Source: a virus (lineage: Duplodnaviria > Heunggongvirae > Uroviricota > Caudoviricetes). Taken from it: a DNA stretch of 36,911 nt. The stretch lies in the IMG/VR virus record IMGVR_UViG_2531839667_000007. One strand, written 5' to 3'. Below are positions 1-17,031 of the stretch, piece after piece. Position 1 is the stretch's first letter, and every line of letters starts with the position of its first letter. Made by a program: the position numbers and the translations under genes. Under the pieces are notes generated by a model. The model saw only the letters and a program-made list of their open reading frames with translations. It was not told where the DNA came from and ran no database searches.

Positions 1-810
1 TGCCGTCAATGTTCCGGCATCCACATCACCAGGCCAGAGAGCGTAGGCCAGTTCGTCATCCAGTGTTTTCCATGTCTGCTTGTATTCGCGATGAATGGCA
101 GCAATGACCGGGCTGATTTTTCCTGTTGAATTTTCAGTGTGCTGTTGATTGGCTCTGGCGCGGGCGAGATCAACAACAGACGTGTATTTTCCGGTTTCCT
201 TGCGTTCACCTTCGCGACGTTTTTTCCAGATGCGCATCTCTGCCTGAATTTCGGGCCATTTGGCACCAGGCTTACATTTATGCTTAACCCACCCGATGGC
301 ATGCAGCTTAAGCTCCGGATACATGGCGTTAACTTCTGGCATTTTCATCAACGCTTCAACGATATGTCCGTCGAATGTTGCCATGTCTTCCTGCAACAGT
401 TCCTGCGCGCTAATCACCATATCAACGGTGATGTTTTCACATGTGTCGAACTTAACCATGACAGCGTTCTGTACTTCAGGGGCCAGCTTGTCAAAAGTGA
501 CGTTCATAGGATCTGATTCAGTCTCAACCGGGACAAAGGAAGCAGACTCCTCATCCCAGCGGTTTTCCTGCATAAATTCAGCATCCCAGGAATCGAGGGC
601 AGGGCGGGGTATACCGGGTTTATCCTCGCAAACAAGAAATTTATAAGCGCAGTCCTGAGCAGCCGGATAATGTTCCAGGAATTGCCAGTGAAATTTTGCG
701 CGGGCGCGACGTTCATCACCGGCTTCAATGGCTGTGGCTACAGGTTTAGCGCCTTCTTGTTTTATTGCCTGTTCGTCCGGAATGGCAGCGCAAATAAAGA
801 CTTTACTCAT
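1..810 (-). CDS. hypothetical early-region protein, partial (3' end beyond window start)
   Basis: Own minus-strand translation from ATG (complement of 808-810) with GAGG Shine-Dalgarno gives 270 codons with no stop down to position 1 (MSKVFICAAIPDEQAIKQEG...GDVDAGTLTA); absent from ORF track because no stop lies in the window; family not recognised. Confidence 0.55.
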   Translation of the reverse strand, partial: MSKVFICAAIPDEQAIKQEGAKPVATAIEAGDERRARAKFHWQFLEHYPAAQDCAYKFLVCEDKPGIPRPALDSWDAEFMQENRWDEESASFVPVETESDPMNVTFDKLAPEVQNAVMVKFDTCENITVDMVISAQELLQEDMATFDGHIVEALMKMPEVNAMYPELKLHAIGWVKHKCKPGAKWPEIQAEMRIWKKRREGERKETGKYTSVVDLARARANQQHTENSTGKISPVIAAIHREYKQTWKTLDDELAYALWPGDVDAGTLTA

Positions 811-903
811 TTTGTTTTAACCTCATGACAGATTTAAGGGTGAACAAATCCCTGCCATTGCTGGCATATAAGAATGAAATCGGATGTTTATTACGGAACT
901 GTT

Positions 904-1104
904 TTAAAGACCTGCCGGGATTTCGTTATTATCCTGGTGAATAACTTTATCGACCGGGTAACAGTTACCGGGAATTTTCTGTTCGGTTGCTGCAGTCACA
1001 CACTCCTGCATTGTCCTGTGAACACTGACTGCAATATCAACTGGCTCTCCGGAAACAAGAAAAACTGTCAGAACAAGTGCAAATGCTGTATTCATTGCCA
1101 GCAT
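904..1104 (-). CDS. small hypothetical protein with signal-peptide-like hydrophobic N-terminus (66 aa from internal Met of track ORF 904..1149)
   Basis: Track ORF; N-terminus MLAMNTAFALVLTVFLVSG is hydrophobic; start choice uncertain, weak SD. Confidence 0.3.
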   Translation of the reverse strand: MLAMNTAFALVLTVFLVSGEPVDIAVSVHRTMQECVTAATEQKIPGNCYPVDKVIHQDNNEIPAGL

Positions 1105-1280
1105 CCTTTTTGTATCGGACGTAAACGGGCCAGCATTGAAAGAATGCATATTTTATTTAATAACTCCCGTTCGTGTTTTCTCTTGTTAATGGCATCTTCA
1201 GTAAATACAGGGTTACTGATAGTGACACCAATTTCAAAACAACCTTCAGACGTATTAACGTTTGGTAATAACGTTTCCAT
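1092..1280 (-). CDS. small hypothetical early protein (62 aa, METLLPNVNTSEG...)
   Basis: Internal ATG of track ORF 1092..1385 preceded by GAGGA at 7-nt spacing on minus strand. Confidence 0.35.
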   Translation of the reverse strand: METLLPNVNTSEGCFEIGVTISNPVFTEDAINKRKHERELLNKICILSMLARLRPIQKGCWQ

Positions 1281-1848
1281 TATCGCGTCCTCAACAATGA
1301 ATTTTGTGATGCGGTGCCTGGTGCCTCCAGGTGACGTTAACCAGTTAACAATTAACGCCGGATACAGAGAATCCACCCATAACACTGTTTTTGGTTTTAA
1401 CTGTTCCGCGTGCGCTCAGCCGCATTCACCACATCACAAAATTCACTTTAAAAAGGGCGGCAGAGCAGTCACGGAGTAAAACTGATACCGCCAAACGTCA
1501 CCAGAAAATTGATAACAGAGGGCGTTGCAGCGGGGTTGTCACTTAAGCGTATGGTCAACCTGACAACCCGGTGTCCTCAACGGGGGAAGGAATAACCCCG
1601 CCATACTTACCGCCGCGCCATTTCGCGGATTGCCACAACCGGAAGCGCACGGTCGACGAAAATTTAACGACAGGCTATCTATGAACCAGCTACCTCGCCG
1701 TGCGCTTTCGCGTTATGGTCTGACTTTTCAGGGAAATATCCTTTCAGTAAACTGTCAATGCCGGATGCTCACCCGTGTCCGGCGCACGCACTCCACCTCA
1801 CCCGTGGAGAACTCCTTAATTACTAACCTTAGCTTTGTTGATTAGCTA

Positions 1849-2067
1849 CTAACGCGGGTATGTAATCATTCTGGCAATGCTTAATGCCGCTGCTTTTTCC
1901 AGATTGGTGATATCCTGCTCCAGAGCGGACAGATTTTCAGCCTGCTTAGCCCTGGCTTCATTGGCCCATTTCAAATCCTGCGCTGCATTAATTTTCTGGC
2001 GCATCCACTCATAAAGTTCATCATCGGTATAGTCTGGCGCGATGATGACGGGTTCTCGTTTCTGCAT
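1849..2067 (-). CDS. small hypothetical early protein (72 aa)
   Basis: Track ORF; ATG preceded by GAGGA at 6-nt spacing; tightly packed with neighbouring minus-strand ORFs. Confidence 0.5.
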   Translation of the reverse strand: MQKREPVIIAPDYTDDELYEWMRQKINAAQDLKWANEARAKQAENLSALEQDITNLEKAAALSIARMITYPR

Positions 2068-2096
2068 ACTGATTCCTCGCGGTGCTGTTTCGCTTA

Positions 2097-2225
2097 TCAG
2101 CCGTTAGATTTTGCCGAACTGGAAAGCGCCTGTTTAAATTCGTTGAAGCCGAGAGCTTCTTCGCCGTCGGCAAGACCTTCGAAGTATTCTTCGTAAGCCT
2201 TTTCCATGATTGTGTCGAAATCCAT
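2097..2225 (-). CDS. small acidic hypothetical protein (42 aa, MDFDTIMEKAYEEYFEGLADGEEALGFNEFKQALSSSAKSNG)
   Basis: Own translation; ATG with AGGTGA SD at 5-nt spacing, 1 nt after the stop of the upstream ORF; below track length cutoff. Confidence 0.35.
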   Translation of the reverse strand: MDFDTIMEKAYEEYFEGLADGEEALGFNEFKQALSSSAKSNG

Positions 2226-2226
2226 A

Positions 2227-2382
2227 TCACTCACCTGAGTTTCTTTCCAGCCAGCGACGGGCACCATTTTCGGTTTTAAACGTTTTGCTTTTGGTATACG
2301 TCATCGCGGTGAATGTGCCGTCCTGGTTGGGAAACACGCCGTACACCAGAGATTCGTTGTTGCCAAGACCGATAGTATCCAT
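2227..2382 (-). CDS. small hypothetical protein, first gene leftward of the immunity region (51 aa from MDTIGLGNNE; alternative start at 2463)
   Basis: Track ORF 2227..2463; internal ATG preceded by GAGG at about 5-nt spacing; no arginine-rich N-like motif. Confidence 0.4.
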   Translation of the reverse strand: MDTIGLGNNESLVYGVFPNQDGTFTAMTYTKSKTFKTENGARRWLERNSGE

Positions 2383-2567
2383 GTTGACCTCATTTCCCCT
2401 TAACGCCGGGGTAGCGGAACAAAAACCTGCTGCATAGTTATTAAAGTTGAACCCTGCCGTCATGTTCTTACGCCTCGGGCTGGCTACTTAACCCCTGACC
2501 ACTGCCTGGTAACTCGAAGTATTGCCCTGCGTTCTGCGGGACGGGGTGGGTTGGTATGAAAGGAAGG

Positions 2568-2606
2568 ATACCCACGGGTATTTAAAAAGTAAATACCCGT
2601 GGGTAA
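2568..2606. promoter_or_regulatory. left operator region: two 14-bp palindromic sites ATACCCACGGGTAT (2568-2581) and ATACCCGTGGGTAA (2593-2606), candidate OL
   Basis: Near-perfect inverted repeats 25 bp centre to centre, just 3' of the repressor gene, matching two related sites on the other side of the repressor. Confidence 0.5.
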
Positions 2607-2648
2607 TTTTTTTGATGTGTCTTAACTGGTGACTGGTTGTTTGGTGAG

Positions 2649-3068
2649 TTATGATGCGTTTTGTGCTTTCTTTTTACGGATTTCTTCGTAGATCATATTG
2701 TAATACTGTTTTTTCTCTTCAAGAGTTTTTAATAAGTTATCCGCTTCACTTTCTGGCAGTTCGTCTAAGAGATCTAAAAAAATACGTTGTCGTGGCGTTA
2801 GAACCCTTGTTTCATAATTGGAGGCTGTGTTCGTTGATGATGAAACGATACCATCCATCCATCCCCGGGGTAACCCAAAGGACTCTTCTATAATCTCCAC
2901 CATATCATCAGCGATCCGTTTTTTTCCTTTTTTCCCCTCTGGGTACAACATTCTTGATACATAAGAAGGCTCGCGACCGATCTTTCTGGCCACGTTAACC
3001 GCTTTACCATCGCATTTCTCATCACGAATTTTGATGAGTTGTTGTCGTCTAAATTCATATTTGTCCAT
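2649..3068 (-). CDS. phage repressor (cI analogue), short HTH protein without LexA-like S24 peptidase domain
   Basis: 139 aa, HTH-like segment GKAVNVARKIGREPSYVSRMLY; divergent from cro-like gene; flanked by repeated operator-like sites. Confidence 0.75.
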   Translation of the reverse strand: MDKYEFRRQQLIKIRDEKCDGKAVNVARKIGREPSYVSRMLYPEGKKGKKRIADDMVEIIEESFGLPRGWMDGIVSSSTNTASNYETRVLTPRQRIFLDLLDELPESEADNLLKTLEEKKQYYNMIYEEIRKKKAQNAS

Positions 3069-3074
3069 AGGTAA

Positions 3075-3144
3075 ATAATAGATGCGATTACCGCAAGGTA
3101 AACAACCTAGGGGTATTGACTTTTGTTTACCTGTGGGTATTCTT
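3075..3144. promoter_or_regulatory. right operator/promoter region: sites ACCTAGGGGTAT (3105-3116) and ACCTGTGGGTAT (3129-3140); candidate PR -35 TTGACT (3116-3121) and -10 ATTCTT (3139-3144); candidate leaderless PRM with -10 TATTAT on minus strand (3075-3080)
   Basis: Operator-like repeats share ACCY-NN-GGGTAT core with the left sites; promoter hexamers read from sequence, not verified. Confidence 0.45.
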
Positions 3145-3168
3145 TACTGTGTTTACTAAGGAGTAGCT

Positions 3169-3450
3169 ATGGAAGAATTAAGAATATTTCTCAATTCTCT
3201 TTCGTCAGATGAACAGCGTATGTTTGCATGTGAGTGTGGTACTAGCATCGGTTATCTAAGAAAGGCATTGAGTAAAGGTCAAATCTTAGGGGCATCGTTA
3301 TGTGTCCTTATTGAGCGAGCCAGTAATGGTGAAGTTACACGTCAGCAACTAAGGCCTTTTGATTGGATGAATATTTGGCCCGAGCTGGAAGATACCAAAA
3401 CGTTAACACAACCACTTACTAGGAGCTTGATTCATGAAAATCAAGCATGA
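3169..3450 (+). CDS. Cro-like early regulator (YdaS-like HTH protein)
   Basis: 93 aa, divergent from repressor, AAGGAG SD 5 nt upstream; resemblance to Rac-prophage YdaS family is from recall. Confidence 0.65.
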   Translation: MEELRIFLNSLSSDEQRMFACECGTSIGYLRKALSKGQILGASLCVLIERASNGEVTRQQLRPFDWMNIWPELEDTKTLTQPLTRSLIHENQA

Positions 3451-3859
3451 ACACATCCGCATGGCGATGAATGCCTGGGCGCGTCCTGATGGCGAAAAAG
3501 TTCCAGCAGCTGGAATAACCCAGGCTTATTTTGAGTTGGGTATGACGTTTCCTGAACTGTATGACGACAGCCATCCGGAAGCCCTGGCTCGCAATACCCA
3601 GAAAATTTTCCGCTGGGTAGAGAAAGACACCCCTGATGCAGTTGAAAAAATTCAGGCGTTGTTACCAGCGATCGAAAAGGCAATGCCACCTTTGCTGGTG
3701 GCCAGAATGCGCAGCCACAGTTCAGCTTATTTTCGGGAGCTGGTGGAGACGCGGGAGCGATTGGTGAGAGACGCTGATGATTTTGTCGCAGTGGCAATCG
3801 CCGGTTTCAATCAGATGAACCGTGGTGGCCCGGCAGGAAATGCTGTGGCAGTACATTGA
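3434..3859 (+). CDS. YdaT-like protein (CII-position regulator of Rac-type prophages)
   Basis: 141 aa starting MKIKHEHI, as recalled for Rac YdaT; overlaps the cro-like gene end; AGGAG SD. Confidence 0.65.
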   Translation: MKIKHEHIRMAMNAWARPDGEKVPAAGITQAYFELGMTFPELYDDSHPEALARNTQKIFRWVEKDTPDAVEKIQALLPAIEKAMPPLLVARMRSHSSAYFRELVETRERLVRDADDFVAVAIAGFNQMNRGGPAGNAVAVH

Positions 3860-3930
3860 CTGACAATAGCCATATCGAATCGCTTCCGGCAACTCGTGAG
3901 TAAAAAGATTCGGTATCAGAAGAGGTGAGT

Positions 3931-5001
3931 ATGGCTAACGCTTGGCTCAGATTATGGCATGACATGCCAAATGACCCTAAGTGGCGAACAATTGCCAGGG
4001 TGTCAGGGCAGCCAATTGCAACAGTGATGGCAGTGTATATCCACCTCCTGGTGAGCGCGTCACGAAATGTCACGCGAGGTCACATTGATGTCACGACAGA
4101 AGATTTGGCAAGTGCGCTCGACGTGACAGAAGAGGTAATTGATTCAATTTTGCAGACGATGCAGGGGCGGGTACTTGATGGTGATTTAATCACTGGATGG
4201 GAAAAACGCCAGGTGCTTAAAGAGGACAACGGCAATATTTCGCAAACCGCAAAATCTCCTGCAGAGCGCAAGAGGGCGCAGCGAGAGAGGGAAAGAAAGC
4301 GGGAACAAAATGGCGATTGTCACGGCGCGTCACGAAATGTCACGCACATGTCACGACGAGTCACGACAGATAAAGATACAGATAAAGATACAGATCAAGA
4401 AGATCAAAACACTATGGTCCATGGCGTAAAAAACGCCACGAACCAGGCAGGGGATGTTCAGACCGTCAATCTTGGTCAGCCAGCAGGCACGACACCGGAA
4501 GCCGATTCAGCGTATGCGCTGAAAGCCGATTCGGGCGCTGTGCAGCAGGTGATGACCGCAAGGCCGGAGCAATCACACCAACTGCAGCAGCCTGAAGCCG
4601 ATTCCGCCATTCTGCGGGAAGCCGATCGGGTAGTCCCGGAAAACACCGGGCAGTCTGTGGGACGAGTGGATTATCCGGATGTGTTCGAACAGGTCTGGCG
4701 GGAGTACCCGTTGCGTGCCGGAGCAAACCCGAAGAAATCCGCTTTCAGTGCCTGGAAGGCCAGATTACGCGAGGGGGTGCCACCAGAGGCCATGCTGGAT
4801 GGCGTGAGGCGTTACGCAAGATACTTGGCGGCTACCGGGAAAACGGGAACGGAATTTGTTCAGCGAGCGACGACGTTTTTAGGACCGGACCGGAATTTTG
4901 AGAACCCCTGGTTGCTCCCGGTAAGCGGTACGAACAACCAGCGTTGCGTGAATCACATTTCTGAACCAGATACCGAAATTCCACTGGGCTTCAGGGGGTA
5001 A
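3931..5001 (+). CDS. replication initiation protein (lambda O analogue) with internal iterons
   Basis: 356 aa from ATG 3931 (SD AGAAGAGG); position after cro/CII-like genes; contains two clusters of GTCACG direct repeats. Confidence 0.65.
   Translation: MANAWLRLWHDMPNDPKWRTIARVSGQPIATVMAVYIHLLVSASRNVTRGHIDVTTEDLASALDVTEEVIDSILQTMQGRVLDGDLITGWEKRQVLKEDNGNISQTAKSPAERKRAQRERERKREQNGDCHGASRNVTHMSRRVTTDKDTDKDTDQEDQNTMVHGVKNATNQAGDVQTVNLGQPAGTTPEADSAYALKADSGAVQQVMTARPEQSHQLQQPEADSAILREADRVVPENTGQSVGRVDYPDVFEQVWREYPLRAGANPKKSAFSAWKARLREGVPPEAMLDGVRRYARYLAATGKTGTEFVQRATTFLGPDRNFENPWLLPVSGTNNQRCVNHISEPDTEIPLGFRG
4059..4095. repeat. iteron cluster 1: GTCACG/GTCACA at 4059, 4069, 4079, 4090 (about 10-bp phasing)
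   Basis: Direct repeats read from sequence inside the replication gene; encode ASRNVTRGHIDVTT. Confidence 0.55.
4319..4390. repeat. iteron cluster 2: GTCACG at 4319, 4329, 4339, 4350, 4360 followed by AT-rich tandem ACAGATAAAGAT x2 (candidate origin)
   Basis: Direct repeats at helical phasing then AT-rich tandem repeat, as in lambda ori inside O. Confidence 0.55.
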
Positions 5002-5041
5002 GTGTTGATTTCTGGTCATGAGGTAATTTTCAGGAGGACTT

Positions 5042-5464
5042 GTGGCAAAAGTTTTTACACAAGAAGAGCGAGAAAAAATTAAAGGGCAGGTTGTTGAACT
5101 CGTACGCCAGAGTGGGCGTGAGACGTTACGGCAACTGGAAGTCAAGACAGGTGCGACAAGATATCTGATGAGCGTTCTCGCAAGAGAGCTGGTTGCCAGC
5201 GGCGATGTATACAACTCTGGTTACGGGTTGTTCCCGTCTGAACAGGCGCGTAAGGACTGGCAAAACGCCCGCAAAAAACTCTCAAGGGCAAATCTGAAGA
5301 AACCATCTGTGGTTGATCCTGACCTTATCTGGTCATTACCAGACGGAGAAATACGCCGCTACGACAGGCGTCAAAACATAATCTGTAGCGAGTGCCGGAA
5401 GAGCGAAGCTATGCAGCGTGTACTGGCTTTCTATCAGGGTAATTTTCAGAAGGTGCTGTTGTGA
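5042..5464 (+). CDS. hypothetical protein at the lambda P position (140 aa, GTG start)
   Basis: Track ORF; GTG start 4 nt after AGGAGG; not DnaC-like or lambda P-like by eye; C-terminal CSEC motif. Confidence 0.55.
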   Translation: MAKVFTQEEREKIKGQVVELVRQSGRETLRQLEVKTGATRYLMSVLARELVASGDVYNSGYGLFPSEQARKDWQNARKKLSRANLKKPSVVDPDLIWSLPDGEIRRYDRRQNIICSECRKSEAMQRVLAFYQGNFQKVLL

Positions 5465-5569
5465 GCCAAATTAACAATCGGAACTTCGTGAAGAGAAAGC
5501 ATAATCCAAATCTGAATAATTAAGTTCAGCACTGTAAATAAAATTTAATCCTTAACTGGAGGTATATCT

Positions 5570-5683
5570 ATGTCAAATACACAGAAAATTATTAACACTG
5601 AAAAATATAACGAGTGGGTGAAAAATTCTCTGAGCAGATTTTTAAAATTACTGGCGACGAGAATGTGGCAAAAAATGAATTAG
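5570..5683 (+). CDS. small ORF (37 aa, MSNTQKIINTEKYNEWVKNSLSRFLKLLATRMWQKMN)
   Basis: Own translation; ATG 7 nt after GGAGG; AT-rich segment. Confidence 0.3.
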   Translation: MSNTQKIINTEKYNEWVKNSLSRFLKLLATRMWQKMN

Positions 5684-5813
5684 AACCGTGGACACCTGAA
5701 GGAAACGCACCAAATTATTGCTGGTGGGAGGTTGATCCGGTTGATGCTGCAAATGAAGCCATGAGTTACCACAACGATTAATGTCGGGAGGCCGCCCGAA
5801 AGGGCGGTAAGAA

Positions 5814-6032
5814 ATGACTACATTATTCAGAAAAGAATATCCGCAAAAAAGTAGGGCGACAGAATTTTTGTTTCTCATTCTGTTTATCGTATTGATGATA
5901 CCGATATCCCCTCTAATTTTTGTCTGGGCAATCGGGAAAATAATTGAGCCAGTTACTGAATTGTATACCGACGTTGTATGGGCGTCGTTCAACACACTGC
6001 ACAATAAAATTAATCCGTATAAGGAAAACTGA
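5814..6032 (+). CDS. small predicted membrane protein (72 aa)
   Basis: Track ORF; hydrophobic stretch FLFLILFIVLMIPISPLIFVWAIG; SD-like AAGGGCGG lies inside hairpin 5792-5807. Confidence 0.4.
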   Translation: MTTLFRKEYPQKSRATEFLFLILFIVLMIPISPLIFVWAIGKIIEPVTELYTDVVWASFNTLHNKINPYKEN

Positions 6033-6033
6033 T

Positions 6034-6297
6034 ATGGCAACTTTGACAAAAAAAGAACGGGCATGGTTGAACGAATTACAGGAAGTTCTTGATCGCTGTC
6101 CATCACCGAAAAAAATTGGCTTTTACACCATTGGCGATAAAAGCATTTACCTGTATGACCTACGCCGCATGGATGAAATCATGGAGGCTCTTGATAATCG
6201 TTCGTCGATGGATTGGTGTGTTGCTGTTCATGATATGAATGCAGGGTTTGATGAAAAGATTTTGTTCCCCTCATCAGTTGAAAGCACTGCGGGTTAA
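6034..6297 (+). CDS. hypothetical protein (87 aa from MATLTKKERAW)
   Basis: Internal ATG of track ORF 5944..6297, AAGGAAAA SD. Confidence 0.5.
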   Translation: MATLTKKERAWLNELQEVLDRCPSPKKIGFYTIGDKSIYLYDLRRMDEIMEALDNRSSMDWCVAVHDMNAGFDEKILFPSSVESTAG

Positions 6298-6307
6298 GGA
6301 GTAACAC

Positions 6308-6961
6308 ATGACCACTATTACCAAAGAACGTATTGAATTGTTCATTAAAAATCCGCTTGAAAACGGGCTTACCCGTGGTGAACAAATGGAACTGGCACGG
6401 ATTGCGCTGGCATCGCTGGAAGCAGAGCCGGTGGCAAAGATTATAGCTCATTACCCATTAGGAGTTGACGTAGGCAAACAAAAGTTCGTACAGGCCATTG
6501 GAGAGCTTCCTGACTTTGGCGGATATCTATTTGCCGCCCCTCCAGCGCCGATAGTGCCGGAAGAAATGTATTGGCAGGATGCGCCAGTTGAAGGCAGCAG
6601 CAAAGCGGCTGCATACGCTACAGGCTGGAACGATTGCCGCGAAGCCATGCTTCAGTCCGGAAACTTTCGGGAAAATAAAGATTCGTCAACCAATAATTTT
6701 CGGAAAATCCCGGAAGCGTCAACCAGCTCTCCGGTAACTCCGGCTCTTCTGCCTGGTGGTTTCACCATTGAGGATGCGAAGGATTTACATGAAGACCTGG
6801 TGCGCAGCCACATAAGCCAGGCTTTAAGTAGCGAAAAGATGAAAAAGAAAGATCGCGATGCTGATTTGCGTTGGATCCATGGCGTTATAGTTCAGGCAGC
6901 GTGGTTTGTGAAAGCATCACTGGAAGCGTTGCCTGAACTGTCGCAGGAGGTGAATCAATGA
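6308..6961 (+). CDS. hypothetical phage protein (217 aa)
   Basis: Track ORF; ATG after TAAGGAG; family not recognised. Confidence 0.6.
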   Translation: MTTITKERIELFIKNPLENGLTRGEQMELARIALASLEAEPVAKIIAHYPLGVDVGKQKFVQAIGELPDFGGYLFAAPPAPIVPEEMYWQDAPVEGSSKAAAYATGWNDCREAMLQSGNFRENKDSSTNNFRKIPEASTSSPVTPALLPGGFTIEDAKDLHEDLVRSHISQALSSEKMKKKDRDADLRWIHGVIVQAAWFVKASLEALPELSQEVNQ

Positions 6962-7041
6962 CCTGGCCTGAGGCATTCACAACGGTAGGAATTGCGATGG
7001 CGGTGACGCTGGTGGTGTATTCGATTTGCCGCTGGGGATAA
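6958..7041 (+). CDS. small hydrophobic peptide (27 aa, MTWPEAFTTVGIAMAVTLVVYSICRWG)
   Basis: Own translation; ATGA start/stop overlap with upstream gene, CAGGAGG SD at 7 nt. Confidence 0.3.
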   Translation: MTWPEAFTTVGIAMAVTLVVYSICRWG

Positions 7042-7048
7042 AAACGGT

Positions 7049-7076
7049 TTGCGGGAAAAGGAGAGTTAAGTAGAAT
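7049..7076 (+). promoter_or_regulatory. candidate promoter of the hok-like mRNA (-35 TTGCGG 7049-7054, -10 TAGAAT 7071-7076)
   Basis: Hexamers with 16-bp spacer placing the start near 7083, where the 5' element complementary to the mRNA 3' end begins. Confidence 0.35.
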
Positions 7077-7252
7077 TGCTGCGGGTGCTTGAGGCTATCT
7101 GTCTCAGGCATGAACACCAAAAGGCAGATAGAGAAAAGCCCCAGTTAACATTACGCGTCCGGCAAGACGCTTAACATTAATCTGAGGCCATATCTATGCT
7201 CTACACACGTAGGTTAGCCTCTTACGTGCCGAAAGGCAAGGAGAAGCAGGCT

Positions 7253-7408
7253 ATGAAGCAGCAAAAGGCGATGCTTATCGCCCTGATCGTCATCTGTTTA
7301 ACCGTCATTGTGACGGCACTGGTAACGAGGAAAGACCTCTGCGAGGTACGACTCCGAACCGGCCAGACGGAGGTCGCTGTCTTCACAGCTTACGAACCTG
7401 AGGAGTAA
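7253..7408 (+). CDS. hok: Hok/Gef family type I toxin (51 aa)
   Basis: MKQQKAMLIALIVICLTVIVTALVTRKDLCEVRLRTGQTEVAVFTAYEPEE aligns with plasmid R1 Hok along its length; strong SD AAGGCAAGGAGAAG; in-frame upstream ATG at 7196. Confidence 0.8.
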   Translation: MKQQKAMLIALIVICLTVIVTALVTRKDLCEVRLRTGQTEVAVFTAYEPEE

Positions 7409-7478
7409 GAGACCAGGCGAGGGAGAAATCCCTCGCCACCTCTGATGAGTCAGGCATCCTCAACGCACCCGCACTTAA

Positions 7479-7503
7479 CCCGCTTCGGCGGGTTTTGTTT
7501 TTT
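7479..7503 (+). terminator. rho-independent terminator of the hok-like transcript
   Basis: CCCGC-TTCG-GCGGG hairpin followed by TTTTGTTTTTT. Confidence 0.6.
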
Positions 7504-7575
7504 CCTGGCATTCTGGTTTACAATTCGCACGTCAGCCTGAACACCTGACACCTGCTGCGCCAGCAGAGAAAACAG

Positions 7576-16599: not shown

Positions 16600-16914
16600 C
16601 TACCTGAGCTTTGGTGATAGTAAGTTGAAAATTCGCATTTTTTGCTGACATGCGTAACGAGAATCCCATAAGCAGGGAGGACTTAATTCTTCATTAACCC
16701 ATGCGTTGATATTATGTTTCAGCCGTTGAAGCATCAGCGGTGTTAATGTTGTGGTAATAATATCCAGCGTTTTATGTGAGATCTTACCGTAAGGGTCTGC
16801 AAGAATGCTGCTTGTTGCTTCGTTATTATCTGCCATCAGAAGAAGTAACTCTGATTTAACGTTTTCTGTCATTAGTTGTAAAAATCTTCTGCGCAAACTT
16901 TCTTTACTGTTCAT
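16600..16914 (-). CDS. hypothetical ORF antisense to the lysis operon, between holin and endolysin
   Basis: Track ORF (104 aa) in an AT-rich insert; no convincing SD at any candidate start; may be non-coding. Confidence 0.25.
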   Translation of the reverse strand: MNSKESLRRRFLQLMTENVKSELLLLMADNNEATSSILADPYGKISHKTLDIITTTLTPLMLQRLKHNINAWVNEELSPPCLWDSRYACQQKMRIFNLLSPKLR

Positions 16915-17031
16915 TTATATGGCTTCATTTGTTGTAATCTGCTGCGTCTCAAGGGATATGTTTATGAGAGCGACCATGAGTGTTGGATTATATACCTAAC
17001 ATATCAAGGGATTAGAAATCGATAAATCCCC

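What the first reader, a model, noticed from the sequence alone, without database searches (positions are those of the whole stretch)
7049..7505. Complete hok/sok-type type I toxin-antitoxin locus with conserved fold-back RNA elements
The 51-aa ORF at 7253-7408 aligns with Hok along its length. The mRNA architecture is also present: a 5' element (about 7077-7095, TGCTGCGGGTGCTTGAGGC) is complementary to a 3' element (7458-7472, CCTCAACGCACCCGC), as in the tac/fbi fold-back of hok mRNAs; a candidate promoter places the start at the 5' element; a terminator follows at 7479-7503. Unusually, the upstream mok-like ATG (7196) is in the same frame as the toxin rather than an overlapping frame. The antisense Sok-like RNA was not located.
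Basis: partly seen in the sequence, partly recalled or inferred. Interest (0 to 1): 0.55.

Follow-up and report, generated by a model that had tools for sequence, protein, structure and literature searches.

The report
Intact prophage hok/mok/sok toxin-antitoxin locus

Summary
Window 7049-7505 holds a complete hok/mok/sok type I toxin-antitoxin locus. The 51-aa ORF is a Hok/Gef toxin (Pfam 6.3e-23), 50/51 identical to K-12 HokD and 46/51 to HokW. The Rfam hok/sok model matches 7083-7258 at 117 bits. The predicted full-length mRNA (7083-7503) closes through a 12-bp 5'-3' fold-back, tac 7083-7094 with fbi 7458-7470 (pair probability at least 0.97, z = -7.15). About 40 loci from Escherichia to Photorhabdus keep this pairing, with compensatory changes. 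The missing Sok RNA lies on the minus strand at 7204 to 7134. It was placed by alignment to the annotated sokW of phage 933W, and its promoter hexamers are identical to that phage's. The claim that an in-frame mok is unusual is wrong. mokW, mokC and 17 of 25 relatives are in frame; plasmid R1 is in the minority. The DNA is 100% identical to RefSeq genomes annotated hokD, and matches occur in 4941 of 5426 complete E. coli genomes. The 93%-identical hokW-sokW was shown experimentally in 2021. Nothing here is new, so interest is low. The window's copy is the complete form of the locus that K-12 retains only as the relBE-truncated hokD.

The parts
7049..7054 (+). candidate -35 of the hok/mok promoter (TTGCGG, 3 of 6 matches, weak)
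   Evidence: Read from the sequence. It lies 16 nt upstream of the -10. It is identical in 933W but not conserved in more distant relatives, so the assignment is tentative.
7071..7076 (+). -10 of the hok/mok promoter (TAGAAT)
   Evidence: A TAnnAT-type hexamer sits at the same distance (6 nt) upstream of the GGG at the start of the tac element in all 25 relatives, while the sequence further upstream diverges.
7083..7503 (+). predicted full-length hok (mok-hok) mRNA, 421 nt
   Evidence: The 5' end is inferred from the conserved -10 and from position 1 of the Rfam model. The 3' end is inferred from the intrinsic terminator. Fold: -169.8 kcal/mol, z = -7.15.
7083..7094 (+). tac (translational activator) element, GGGUGCUUGAGG
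   Evidence: Pairs with 7458-7470 in the full-length fold, with probability at least 0.97. Pairs with ucb 7136-7142 in the Rfam consensus structure and in the constrained fold of the truncated RNA.
7136..7142 (+). ucb (anti-Shine-Dalgarno of mok), AAGCCCC
   Evidence: In the full-length fold 7138-7142 pair with the mok SD region 7184-7188. The Rfam structure instead pairs this element with tac. The helix shows compensatory changes (helix 3).
7134..7204 (-). Sok-like antisense RNA (about 71 nt): 15-nt single-stranded 5' tail, long hairpin, UUUU end
   Evidence: The annotated sokW of 933W (misc_RNA) maps column for column onto 7204 to 7134. Fold: -28.6 kcal/mol, z = -5.4. The RNA covers the mok start codon and the mok SD.
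7211..7216 (-). -10 of the sok promoter (TAACCT on the minus strand)
   Evidence: Read from the sequence. It is identical in 933W (no differences between 7209 and 7273). In Sp5, mutations around the sokW -10 abolished antitoxin activity (PMC8621323).
7234..7239 (-). -35 of the sok promoter (TTGCCT on the minus strand), 17-nt spacer
   Evidence: Read from the sequence. Conserved as TTGCC/TTGACC across the alignment. It overlaps the complement of the hok SD region.
7184..7187 (+). mok Shine-Dalgarno (GAGG), 8 nt before the mok ATG
   Evidence: Invariant GAGGC across 25 relatives. Sequestered by ucb in the full-length fold, and paired with dcb once tac/ucb is formed.
7196..7408 (+). mok reading frame (70 codons), in frame with hok and sharing its stop codon
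   Evidence: ORF list. The arrangement and lengths match mokW/hokW and mokC/hokC. 17 of 25 relatives are in frame.
7217..7221 (+). dcb (GCCUC), partner of the mok SD in the open, truncated mRNA
   Evidence: The Rfam consensus hairpin pairs GAGGC with GCCUC. The constrained fold of 7083-7455 forms this pairing. Invariant AGCCUCUU across relatives.
7238..7243 (+). hok Shine-Dalgarno (AAGGAG)
   Evidence: Conserved across relatives. Paired with 7220-7225 in the full-length fold.
7253..7408 (+). hok toxin gene, 51 aa
   Evidence: Pfam PF01848 HOK_GEF at 80.6 bits, E 6.3e-23. phrog_251 at E 4e-33. 50/51 identical to K-12 HokD and 46/51 to HokW.
7416..7437 (+). GC-rich 9-bp hairpin with GAAA loop; probable 3' protective hairpin of the processed mRNA
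   Evidence: Present in the MFE fold. Four of its pairs show changes on both sides across relatives (helix 12). The protective role is inferred by analogy with R1 (PMC9841398).
7458..7470 (+). fbi (fold-back inhibitory) element, CCUCAA(C)GCACCC
   Evidence: Pairs with tac. An equivalent element lies 45-56 nt after the stop codon in about 40 loci, with compensatory U-A to C-G and G-C to A-U changes.
7477..7503 (+). intrinsic terminator of the hok mRNA
   Evidence: Terminator scan: 7-bp stem with 5 G-C pairs, loop of 4, then a T run.

Best explanation
The region is an intact hok/mok/sok type I toxin-antitoxin module in the early (nin) region of a Qin-like lambdoid prophage of E. coli. The following mechanism is proposed by homology with R1 hok/sok and with hokW-sokW. 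A promoter with -10 at 7071-7076 makes a 421-nt mRNA (7083-7503). While that mRNA is full length, its 5' tac element (7083-7094) is clamped to the 3' fbi element (7458-7470). The mok SD (7184-7187) is held by the anti-SD ucb (7138-7142), and the hok SD and AUG are also base-paired. In this state the RNA is neither translated nor bound by Sok. Slow 3' exonucleolytic trimming back to the hairpin at 7416-7437 removes fbi. tac then pairs with ucb, which frees the mok SD into a hairpin with dcb (7217-7221) that presents the mok start region. Ribosomes translating mok (7196 onward) open the hok SD, so the 51-aa membrane toxin is made by translational coupling. The antisense Sok RNA is unstable and is made constitutively from the minus strand (7204 to 7134; -35 at 7239-7234, -10 at 7216-7211). 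Its 15-nt 5' tail pairs with the mok start region and blocks mok translation, and the duplex is cleaved by RNase III. When Sok is no longer replenished, after loss of the element or shut-off during prophage induction, the stable hok mRNA pool is processed and translated and the inner membrane is damaged. What is shown here: all the sequence elements, the predicted folds, their conservation and covariation, and homology to annotated and tested loci. What is inferred: transcript ends, processing, coupling, RNase III cleavage, toxicity and the biological role. That role could be prophage maintenance, help with lysis at induction as reported for hokW-sokW, or both.
For: Toxin: Pfam HOK_GEF 6.3e-23, phrog_251 'MokW-like host killing' 4e-33, and identity of 50/51 to HokD and 46/51 to HokW. 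RNA architecture: Rfam RF01794 gives a full-length match at 117.1 bits against a gathering score of 59, with E 3e-26. The full-length fold closes through tac/fbi with probability 0.97-1.0 and sequesters the mok SD, the hok SD and the hok AUG. In the truncated RNA, the structure with tac/ucb enforced lies within 2.3 kcal/mol of the MFE and forms the SDmok/dcb hairpin. Conservation: tac/fbi complementarity at the same offset was found in about 40 loci. RNAalifold recovers the fold-back on its own. On the 25-sequence alignment 97.3% of cells are paired, against 39-46% when partners are slid. Eighteen pairs change on both sides, and 0 of 500 shuffles reach the observed values. Sok: the annotated sokW maps to 7204 to 7134, the promoter hexamers are identical, and the fold has z = -5.4. 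Experiment on the 93%-identical hokW-sokW: HokW is toxic, sokW expressed from its own promoter neutralises it, the antitoxic effect depends partly on RNase III and Hfq, and the system aids Sp5 release (PMC8621323). The R1 mechanism with tac, fbi, ucb and dcb is described in PMC9841398.
Against: No expression, processing or toxicity data exist for this exact allele. The sok -10 (TAACCT) and the hok -35 (TTGCGG) are poor consensus matches, and the promoter scan found neither promoter. The unconstrained MFE of the truncated RNA forms a local 5' hairpin rather than tac/ucb. The NCBIfam Hok models score below their cut-offs: 49 bits against 73, and 38 against 89. Structurally intact chromosomal hokA, hokB and hokC loci were reported not to mediate post-segregational killing (cited in bioRxiv 10.1101/2025.08.07.668861), so structural intactness does not prove activity.
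Confidence: 0.93

Rival explanations
1. The locus is structurally complete but is a silent or decaying relic. It would be transcribed weakly or not activated, and would contribute nothing to the prophage, as has been proposed for several chromosomal hok loci.
For: [quoted passage not shown] The promoters here are weak matches to consensus. K-12 keeps only a truncated copy of this locus.
Against: Every regulatory element is intact, and the helices are maintained by compensatory changes across genera, which indicates purifying selection on the RNA. Matches occur in 4941 of 5426 E. coli genomes. The 93%-identical hokW-sokW is functional and affects phage release (PMC8621323).
Confidence: 0.15
2. 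The module is active, but its main role is not prophage maintenance. It would either help the phage lyse the cell at induction, as proposed for hokW-sokW, or act as an abortive-infection defence against other phages.
For: [quoted passage not shown] The locus lies in the delayed-early nin region, upstream of the DUF968, RusA and Q genes.
Against: Nothing in the sequence distinguishes these roles. The same preprint found no enrichment of hok next to defence systems. This rival concerns the biological role only, not the molecular mechanism, and is compatible with the best explanation.
Confidence: 0.4
3. The ORF and the 5'-3' complementarity are chance features of intergenic prophage DNA.
For: None beyond the small size of the ORF.
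Against: Pfam E 6.3e-23. Rfam E 3e-26. 0 of 200 shuffled tac sequences pair as well. Fold z = -7.15. Covariation across relatives.
Confidence: 0.01

Closest known systems
hokW-mokW-sokW of Stx2 phages 933W and Sp5 (VT2-Sakai)
   Same: 93% nucleotide identity over 432 of 457 bases. The same 70-aa in-frame mok and 51-aa hok sharing a stop codon, with an annotated antisense sokW at the equivalent position. Identical tac, fbi, sok promoter hexamers and upstream -35/-10. Hok is 46/51 identical. Both loci are in lambdoid phages.
   Different: Homology ends at about 7480, so 933W has a different terminator region. Five of the 15 bases of the Sok 5' tail differ. Overall, 7 of the 29 differences within 7083-7472 fall in 7189-7208 (binomial P = 5e-4), so the two Sok RNAs may not cross-react. 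The C-terminus of the toxin also differs (FTAYEPEE here, FVDYESEK in HokW).
hokD (relF) of the E. coli K-12 Qin cryptic prophage
   Same: The toxin is 50/51 identical. Window 7239-7502 is 96.6% identical, covering hok, the 3' hairpin, fbi and the terminator. The prophage neighbourhood is the same, with the dicF/dicB region to the left and a DUF968 ydfU-like gene downstream. RefSeq names the window's gene hokD.
   Different: In K-12 the homology stops 14 nt upstream of the hok ATG, where relBE lies. K-12 therefore lacks the promoter, tac, ucb, the mok start and sok. The window carries the complete locus.
hok/sok (parB) of plasmid R1, the paradigm of the family
   Same: The same set of elements: tac/fbi fold-back, ucb anti-SD, SDmok/dcb hairpin, a 70-codon mok, a cis-antisense Sok over the mok start, and a 3' protective hairpin (PMC9841398; Rfam match).
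   Different: The toxin is only about 44-45% identical. PMC8621323 gives 44% for HokW against R1 Hok. My own comparison, using an R1 sequence recalled from memory, gave 23/51. In R1, mok is in the +1 frame relative to hok (58-nt offset, from the numbering in PMC9841398), whereas it is in frame here (57 nt). R1 is a plasmid; this is a prophage. The Sok hairpin here carries an extension of about 20 nt.
hokC/mokC/sokC (gef) of the E. coli chromosome
   Same: mokC is in frame and shares its stop codon with hokC, and sokC overlaps the mokC start. Hok is 40/51 identical. tac is identical and fbi is equivalent in the hokC-type loci L018-L023.
   Different: This is a chromosomal locus, interrupted downstream by IS186 in K-12. 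The leader is shorter (tac to ATG 150 nt against 170 nt) because the Sok hairpin lacks the extension of about 20 nt.

Membership tests
hok/sok (Hok/Gef) type I toxin-antitoxin family | Small (about 50 aa) Hok/Gef membrane toxin with an N-terminal hydrophobic helix and a conserved Cys | tested here: met
   PF01848 scores 80.6 bits against a cut-off of 22. The sequence MKQQKAMLIALIVICLTVIVTALVTRKDLCEV... has the hydrophobic stretch and Cys30. The NCBIfam Hok models match but fall below their cut-offs.
hok/sok (Hok/Gef) type I toxin-antitoxin family | Overlapping upstream leader frame (mok) with its own SD, extending through the hok start | tested here: met
   ATG at 7196 with GAGG 8 nt upstream, giving a 70-codon ORF through hok. 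The ATG column is conserved in 23 of 25 relatives.
hok/sok (Hok/Gef) type I toxin-antitoxin family | cis-encoded antisense RNA (Sok) complementary to the mok translation initiation region, with its own promoter and a hairpin plus U tail | tested here: met
   Met in silico only. The RNA maps to 7204 to 7134 by alignment to the annotated sokW, with -35 TTGCCT and -10 TAACCT at 17-nt spacing, and folds with z = -5.4. Expression was not tested.
hok/sok (Hok/Gef) type I toxin-antitoxin family | Long-range 5'-3' tac/fbi pairing that closes the full-length mRNA | tested here: met
   12 bp with one bulge, probability 0.97-1.0, conserved with compensatory changes.
hok/sok (Hok/Gef) type I toxin-antitoxin family | Alternative pairings: ucb with the mok SD (closed form) versus tac with ucb plus the mok SD with dcb (open form) | tested here: met
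   The closed pairing is in the full-length MFE. The open pairing is in the Rfam consensus, and is energetically accessible in the truncated RNA (-140.1 against -142.4 kcal/mol).
hok/sok (Hok/Gef) type I toxin-antitoxin family | Match to the curated covariance model RF01794 above its gathering score | tested here: met
   117.1 bits against 59, covering model positions 1-157 of 157. The hit is on the hok-sense strand.
hok/sok (Hok/Gef) type I toxin-antitoxin family | 3' processing to a translatable truncated mRNA, and RNase III cleavage of the Sok-mRNA duplex | not testable with these tools
   Requires northern blots or RACE in wild-type, rnc and pnp/rnb backgrounds. Partial RNase III dependence was reported for hokW-sokW (PMC8621323).
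hok/sok (Hok/Gef) type I toxin-antitoxin family | Toxicity of the peptide and its neutralisation by the antisense RNA | not testable with these tools
   Shown for the 46/51-identical HokW and its sokW (PMC8621323). Not tested for this allele.
hokW-sokW subgroup of lambdoid (Stx) phages | Near-identical locus with in-frame mokW, carried by a lambdoid phage | tested here: met
   93% identity over 95% of the query, the same gene lengths and frames, and a lambdoid prophage context.
K-12-type hokD (relF), third gene of the relBEF operon | hok coding region directly downstream of relBE, without its own leader, mok or sok | tested here: not met
   The window has the full leader and no relBE. K-12 homology covers only 7239-7502. 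The RefSeq name 'HokD' reflects toxin identity, not locus structure.

The most novel reading that the evidence does not exclude
Sequence diversity among closely related prophage hok/sok copies peaks in the 20 bases around the mok start, 7188-7207. This is exactly the Sok 5' recognition tail and its target. The most novel reading is that co-resident prophage copies are under selection to diversify this segment so that each Sok silences only its own hok mRNA. That would make the copies independent addiction or lysis-assist modules, one per prophage. Genomes with any match carry a median of 2 places and up to 10.
Probability: 0.35. Interest if true: 0.3.

Novelty: already known. Interest (0 to 1): 0.1.

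Why it matters
It matters little beyond correct annotation. The locus is a textbook RNA-regulated killer module, and this allele is already in RefSeq under the name hokD. Three modest points of value remain. First, RefSeq records annotate only the toxin ORF, whereas the mok frame, the Sok RNA and the hok mRNA boundaries can be placed precisely here. Second, the window shows the complete form of the locus that K-12 retains only as the relBE-truncated hokD. Third, the concentration of variation in the Sok recognition segment is a testable hint that multiple prophage copies are insulated from one another.

Tried and rejected
(1) The consensus promoter and terminator scan of 6900-7700 found neither the hok promoter, the sok promoter nor a Sok terminator. 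Its single promoter-like hit (7171-7200, + strand) lies inside the leader and is within the chance expectation of 0.5 +/- 0.7. The real promoters were placed by conservation and homology instead. The Sok hairpin has interior mismatches that this scan appears not to handle, which would explain the miss.

(2) The NCBIfam Hok models match only below their cut-offs, so they were not used for membership. Pfam and PHROG are decisive.

(3) The unconstrained fold of the 3'-truncated RNA gives a local 5' hairpin, which resembles the metastable hairpin of the R1 model, rather than tac/ucb. The open form was examined with a constrained fold.

(4) MAFFT misplaces the bulge in the 3' half of fbi. The formal pair counts therefore cover only the GGGYGC/GCRCCC half. 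The other half was assessed locus by locus with duplex folding.

(5) A guessed position for K-12 hokB returned only the gapC pseudogene and was dropped.

(6) I tried to decide whether the minus-strand 59-aa ORF (7450-7629) or the plus-strand 90-aa ORF (7576-7848) is real, by comparison with an 87%-identical relative. The test was inconclusive because both frames stay open.

(7) The idea that the in-frame mok marks a new variant was rejected.

Full report
**Observation.** ORF 7253-7408 encodes 51 aa, and an ATG at 7196 opens a 70-codon frame that runs through it to the same stop codon. The 5' element 7077-7095 (TGCTGCGGGTGCTTGAGGC) and the 3' element 7458-7472 (CCTCAACGCACCCGC) are complementary apart from one bulged C. 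A G+C-rich hairpin at 7477-7494, followed by a T run, is the only terminator-like site in 6900-7700.

**Identity of the toxin and the locus.**
- The ORF matches Pfam HOK_GEF over the whole model (80.6 bits, E 6.3e-23) and PHROG 251, 'MokW-like host killing' (E 4e-33).
- It is 50/51 identical to K-12 HokD (RelF), 46/51 to HokW of phage 933W and 40/51 to HokC.
- Rfam gives a full-length hit of RF01794 ('sok') at 7083-7258 with 117.1 bits, against a gathering score of 59.
- That hit is on the plus strand. The model consensus runs from GGGUGCUUGAGG through the hok SD to the start region. It therefore describes the 5' part of the hok mRNA, not the antisense RNA itself. Its structure contains the tac/ucb stem, the hairpin complementary to the Sok terminator stem, the SDmok/dcb hairpin and the hok SD hairpin.

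**How common it is.** The 457-base stretch is 100% identical in four complete E. coli genomes, where the ORF is annotated 'type I toxin-antitoxin system toxin HokD'. Some match is present in 4941 of 5426 complete genomes, with a median of 2 places per genome and up to 10. It also occurs in 79 phage records. In 933W and VT2-Sakai (93% identity) the features mokW, hokW and 'sokW antisense RNA' are annotated.

**The fold-back.**
- I folded 7083-7503 as the predicted full-length transcript. The MFE is -169.8 kcal/mol, against -128.3 +/- 5.8 for dinucleotide shuffles (z = -7.15).
- Both the MFE and the centroid close through 7083-7094 paired with 7458-7470. The pair probabilities are 0.97-1.0.
- In the same structure the mok SD (GAGG, 7184-7187) is paired with 7138-7142. 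The hok SD (AAGGAG, 7238-7243) is paired with 7220-7225, and the hok AUG with 7383-7391.
- This is the closed, untranslatable conformation described for R1 hok mRNA (PMC9841398).
- After removal of the 3' end (7083-7455), a structure with tac paired to ucb (7136-7142) lies only 2.3 kcal/mol above the MFE. It forms the GAGGC/GCCUC (SDmok/dcb) hairpin that presents the mok start.
- The unconstrained MFE of the truncated RNA instead shows a local 5' hairpin. This resembles the metastable hairpin of the R1 model.

**Conservation and covariation.**
- A scan of one genome per species returned 47 loci from Escherichia, Shigella, Kluyvera, Citrobacter, Pseudocitrobacter, Pantoea, Erwinia and Photorhabdus.
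- In about 40 of them a tac-like 13-mer lies 141-170 nt upstream of the hok ATG (about 210-220 nt from the partial tblastn match in the Erwinia loci). Its best partner in the 3' UTR lies 45-56 nt after the stop codon, against 49 nt in the window.
- The changes are compensatory: GGGUGC/GCACCC becomes GGGCGC/GCGCCC, and GAGGC/(U)CCUC becomes GAGAC/UCUC.
- RNAalifold on 25 sequences recovers the 5'-3' helix on its own.
- On that consensus structure 97.3% of cells are paired, against 39-46% when partners are slid. Eighteen pairs change on both sides, and 0 of 500 shuffles reach the observed values.
- The ucb/SDmok helix, the helix that sequesters the hok start and the 3' hairpin 7416-7437 all carry compensatory changes.

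**Promoter and transcript start.** A TAnnAT hexamer (TAGAAT, 7071-7076 here) lies 6 nt upstream of the GGG at the start of tac in all 25 relatives, while the sequence further upstream diverges. The transcript therefore starts at about 7083.

**The missing Sok.**
- Aligning the window with 933W maps the annotated sokW onto 7204 to 7134 on the minus strand.
- Upstream on that strand lie TTGCCT (7239-7234), a 17-nt spacer and TAACCT (7216-7211). Both hexamers are identical in 933W.
- The 71-nt RNA folds into a 15-nt free 5' tail, a long hairpin and a UUUU end (-28.6 kcal/mol, z = -5.4).
- The tail is complementary to the mok AUG and the spacer just upstream of it (7190-7204), and the hairpin's 5' arm to the mok SD (7184-7187).
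- In Sp5, sokW was detected by northern blot, mutations around its -10 abolished protection, and sokW supplied in trans restored it (PMC8621323).

**The frame of mok.**
There the mok ATG is at 116-118 and the hok ATG at 174-176, a 58-nt offset (numbers from PMC9841398).
- In 933W (mokW 1647-1859 and hokW 1704-1859 in L001) and in K-12 (mokC 16751-16960 and hokC 16751-16903) the two frames share a stop codon.
- Among the 25 aligned relatives, 17 have the 57-nt in-frame spacing and 5 have the 58-nt spacing.

**Context.**
- The window is a Qin-like lambdoid prophage. DicF lies at 1455-1506, three tRNAs at 11503-11749 and STnc100 at 11829-12018. DUF968, RusA and Q-type genes lie downstream of hok, followed by lysis and morphogenesis genes.
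- K-12 Qin matches the window's left end at 97% identity. Around hok, however, only 7239-7502 is shared; upstream, K-12 has relBE.
- The window thus carries the complete form of the locus that K-12 retains as the leaderless hokD.

**Verdict.** The finding is real, correctly interpreted and already known. I found nothing that sets it apart from the annotated hokW/hokD group, so interest is low.

**Minor observations.** Variation among close copies is concentrated in the Sok tail and its target. An invariant TACG lies at the Tyr47 codon, which fits the TadA editing reported for hok genes. A conserved 27-aa hydrophobic ORF lies just upstream. An annotated but doubtful antisense ORF lies over the hok 3' UTR.

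Noticed in passing
window 6958-7041 (+): A 27-aa hydrophobic ORF (MTWPEAFTTVGIAMAVTLVVYSICRWG) whose ATG overlaps the stop codon of the upstream 217-aa ORF (ATGA). It ends a few bases before the hok promoter. tblastn finds it in 90 phage records at 55-96% amino-acid identity, mostly unannotated or labelled 'hypothetical'. It has no Pfam or PHROG match. It may be a real small membrane protein.
   Followed up: partly
window 7450-7629 (-): A 59-aa ORF antisense to the hok 3' UTR. Its last ~12-17 codons are the complement of fbi and the terminator. RefSeq annotates it as a hypothetical protein, and it matches phrog_2947 (E 2.8e-43). It overlaps the plus-strand 90-aa ORF 7576-7848 (phrog_1212). Both frames stay open in an 87%-identical relative, so which one is real remains unresolved.
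   Followed up: partly
window 7391-7394 (+): The Tyr47 codon of hok plus the next base reads TACG, and TTACGAA is invariant in all 25 aligned relatives. This is the motif of TadA A-to-I editing (Tyr to Cys). Such editing is reported for hokB and is said to occur at the equivalent Cys46 position in hokC, hokD and hokE (bioRxiv 10.1101/2025.08.07.668861). Editing would create the second cysteine of the disulfide with Cys30.
   Followed up: partly
window 7188-7207 (both strands): Among nine close prophage-type copies, pairwise diversity peaks here at 0.30 against 0.10 overall. This segment is the Sok 5' tail and the mok start region. Seven of the 29 differences from 933W within 7083-7472 fall in 7189-7208 (P = 5e-4). 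Two other peaks lie at about 7103-7132 (apical stem and loop of the 5' hairpin) and about 7410-7439 (the 3' protective hairpin and its 5' flank). One possible explanation is insulation between co-resident hok/sok copies.
   Followed up: partly
window 7083-7258 (+): The Rfam family RF01794 is named 'sok antitoxin', but it matches the hok-sense strand and ends at the hok SD and start region. In effect it models the hok mRNA leader. A hit therefore does not give the strand or the ends of the antisense RNA.
   Followed up: yes
window about 7155-7174 (both strands): The hairpin shared by the hok leader and the Sok stem carries an apical extension of about 20 nt (GCGTCCGGCAAGACGC). The extension is present in the prophage-type and some Kluyvera loci. 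It is absent from hokC-type, Photorhabdus, Pantoea, Citrobacter and Erwinia loci. Sok here is therefore about 71 nt, against 59 nt for the annotated SokC.
   Followed up: no
window 7239-7502 compared with K-12 (L053 5025-5289): K-12 hokD shares only the hok coding region and 3' UTR with the window, at 96.6% identity. The leader, the mok start and sok are replaced by relBE. The fbi element and terminator survive in K-12 without their tac partner.
   Followed up: yes
window 1455-1506 (-), 11503-11749 (+), 11829-12018 (+), about 3913-3916: DicF sRNA, three tRNA genes and the sRNA STnc100 mark a Qin-like lambdoid prophage. Compared with E. coli strain D1, which is otherwise 98-99.8% identical over 301-13864, the window lacks the IS911 copy that D1 carries at the point corresponding to about 3913-3916.
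   Followed up: partly
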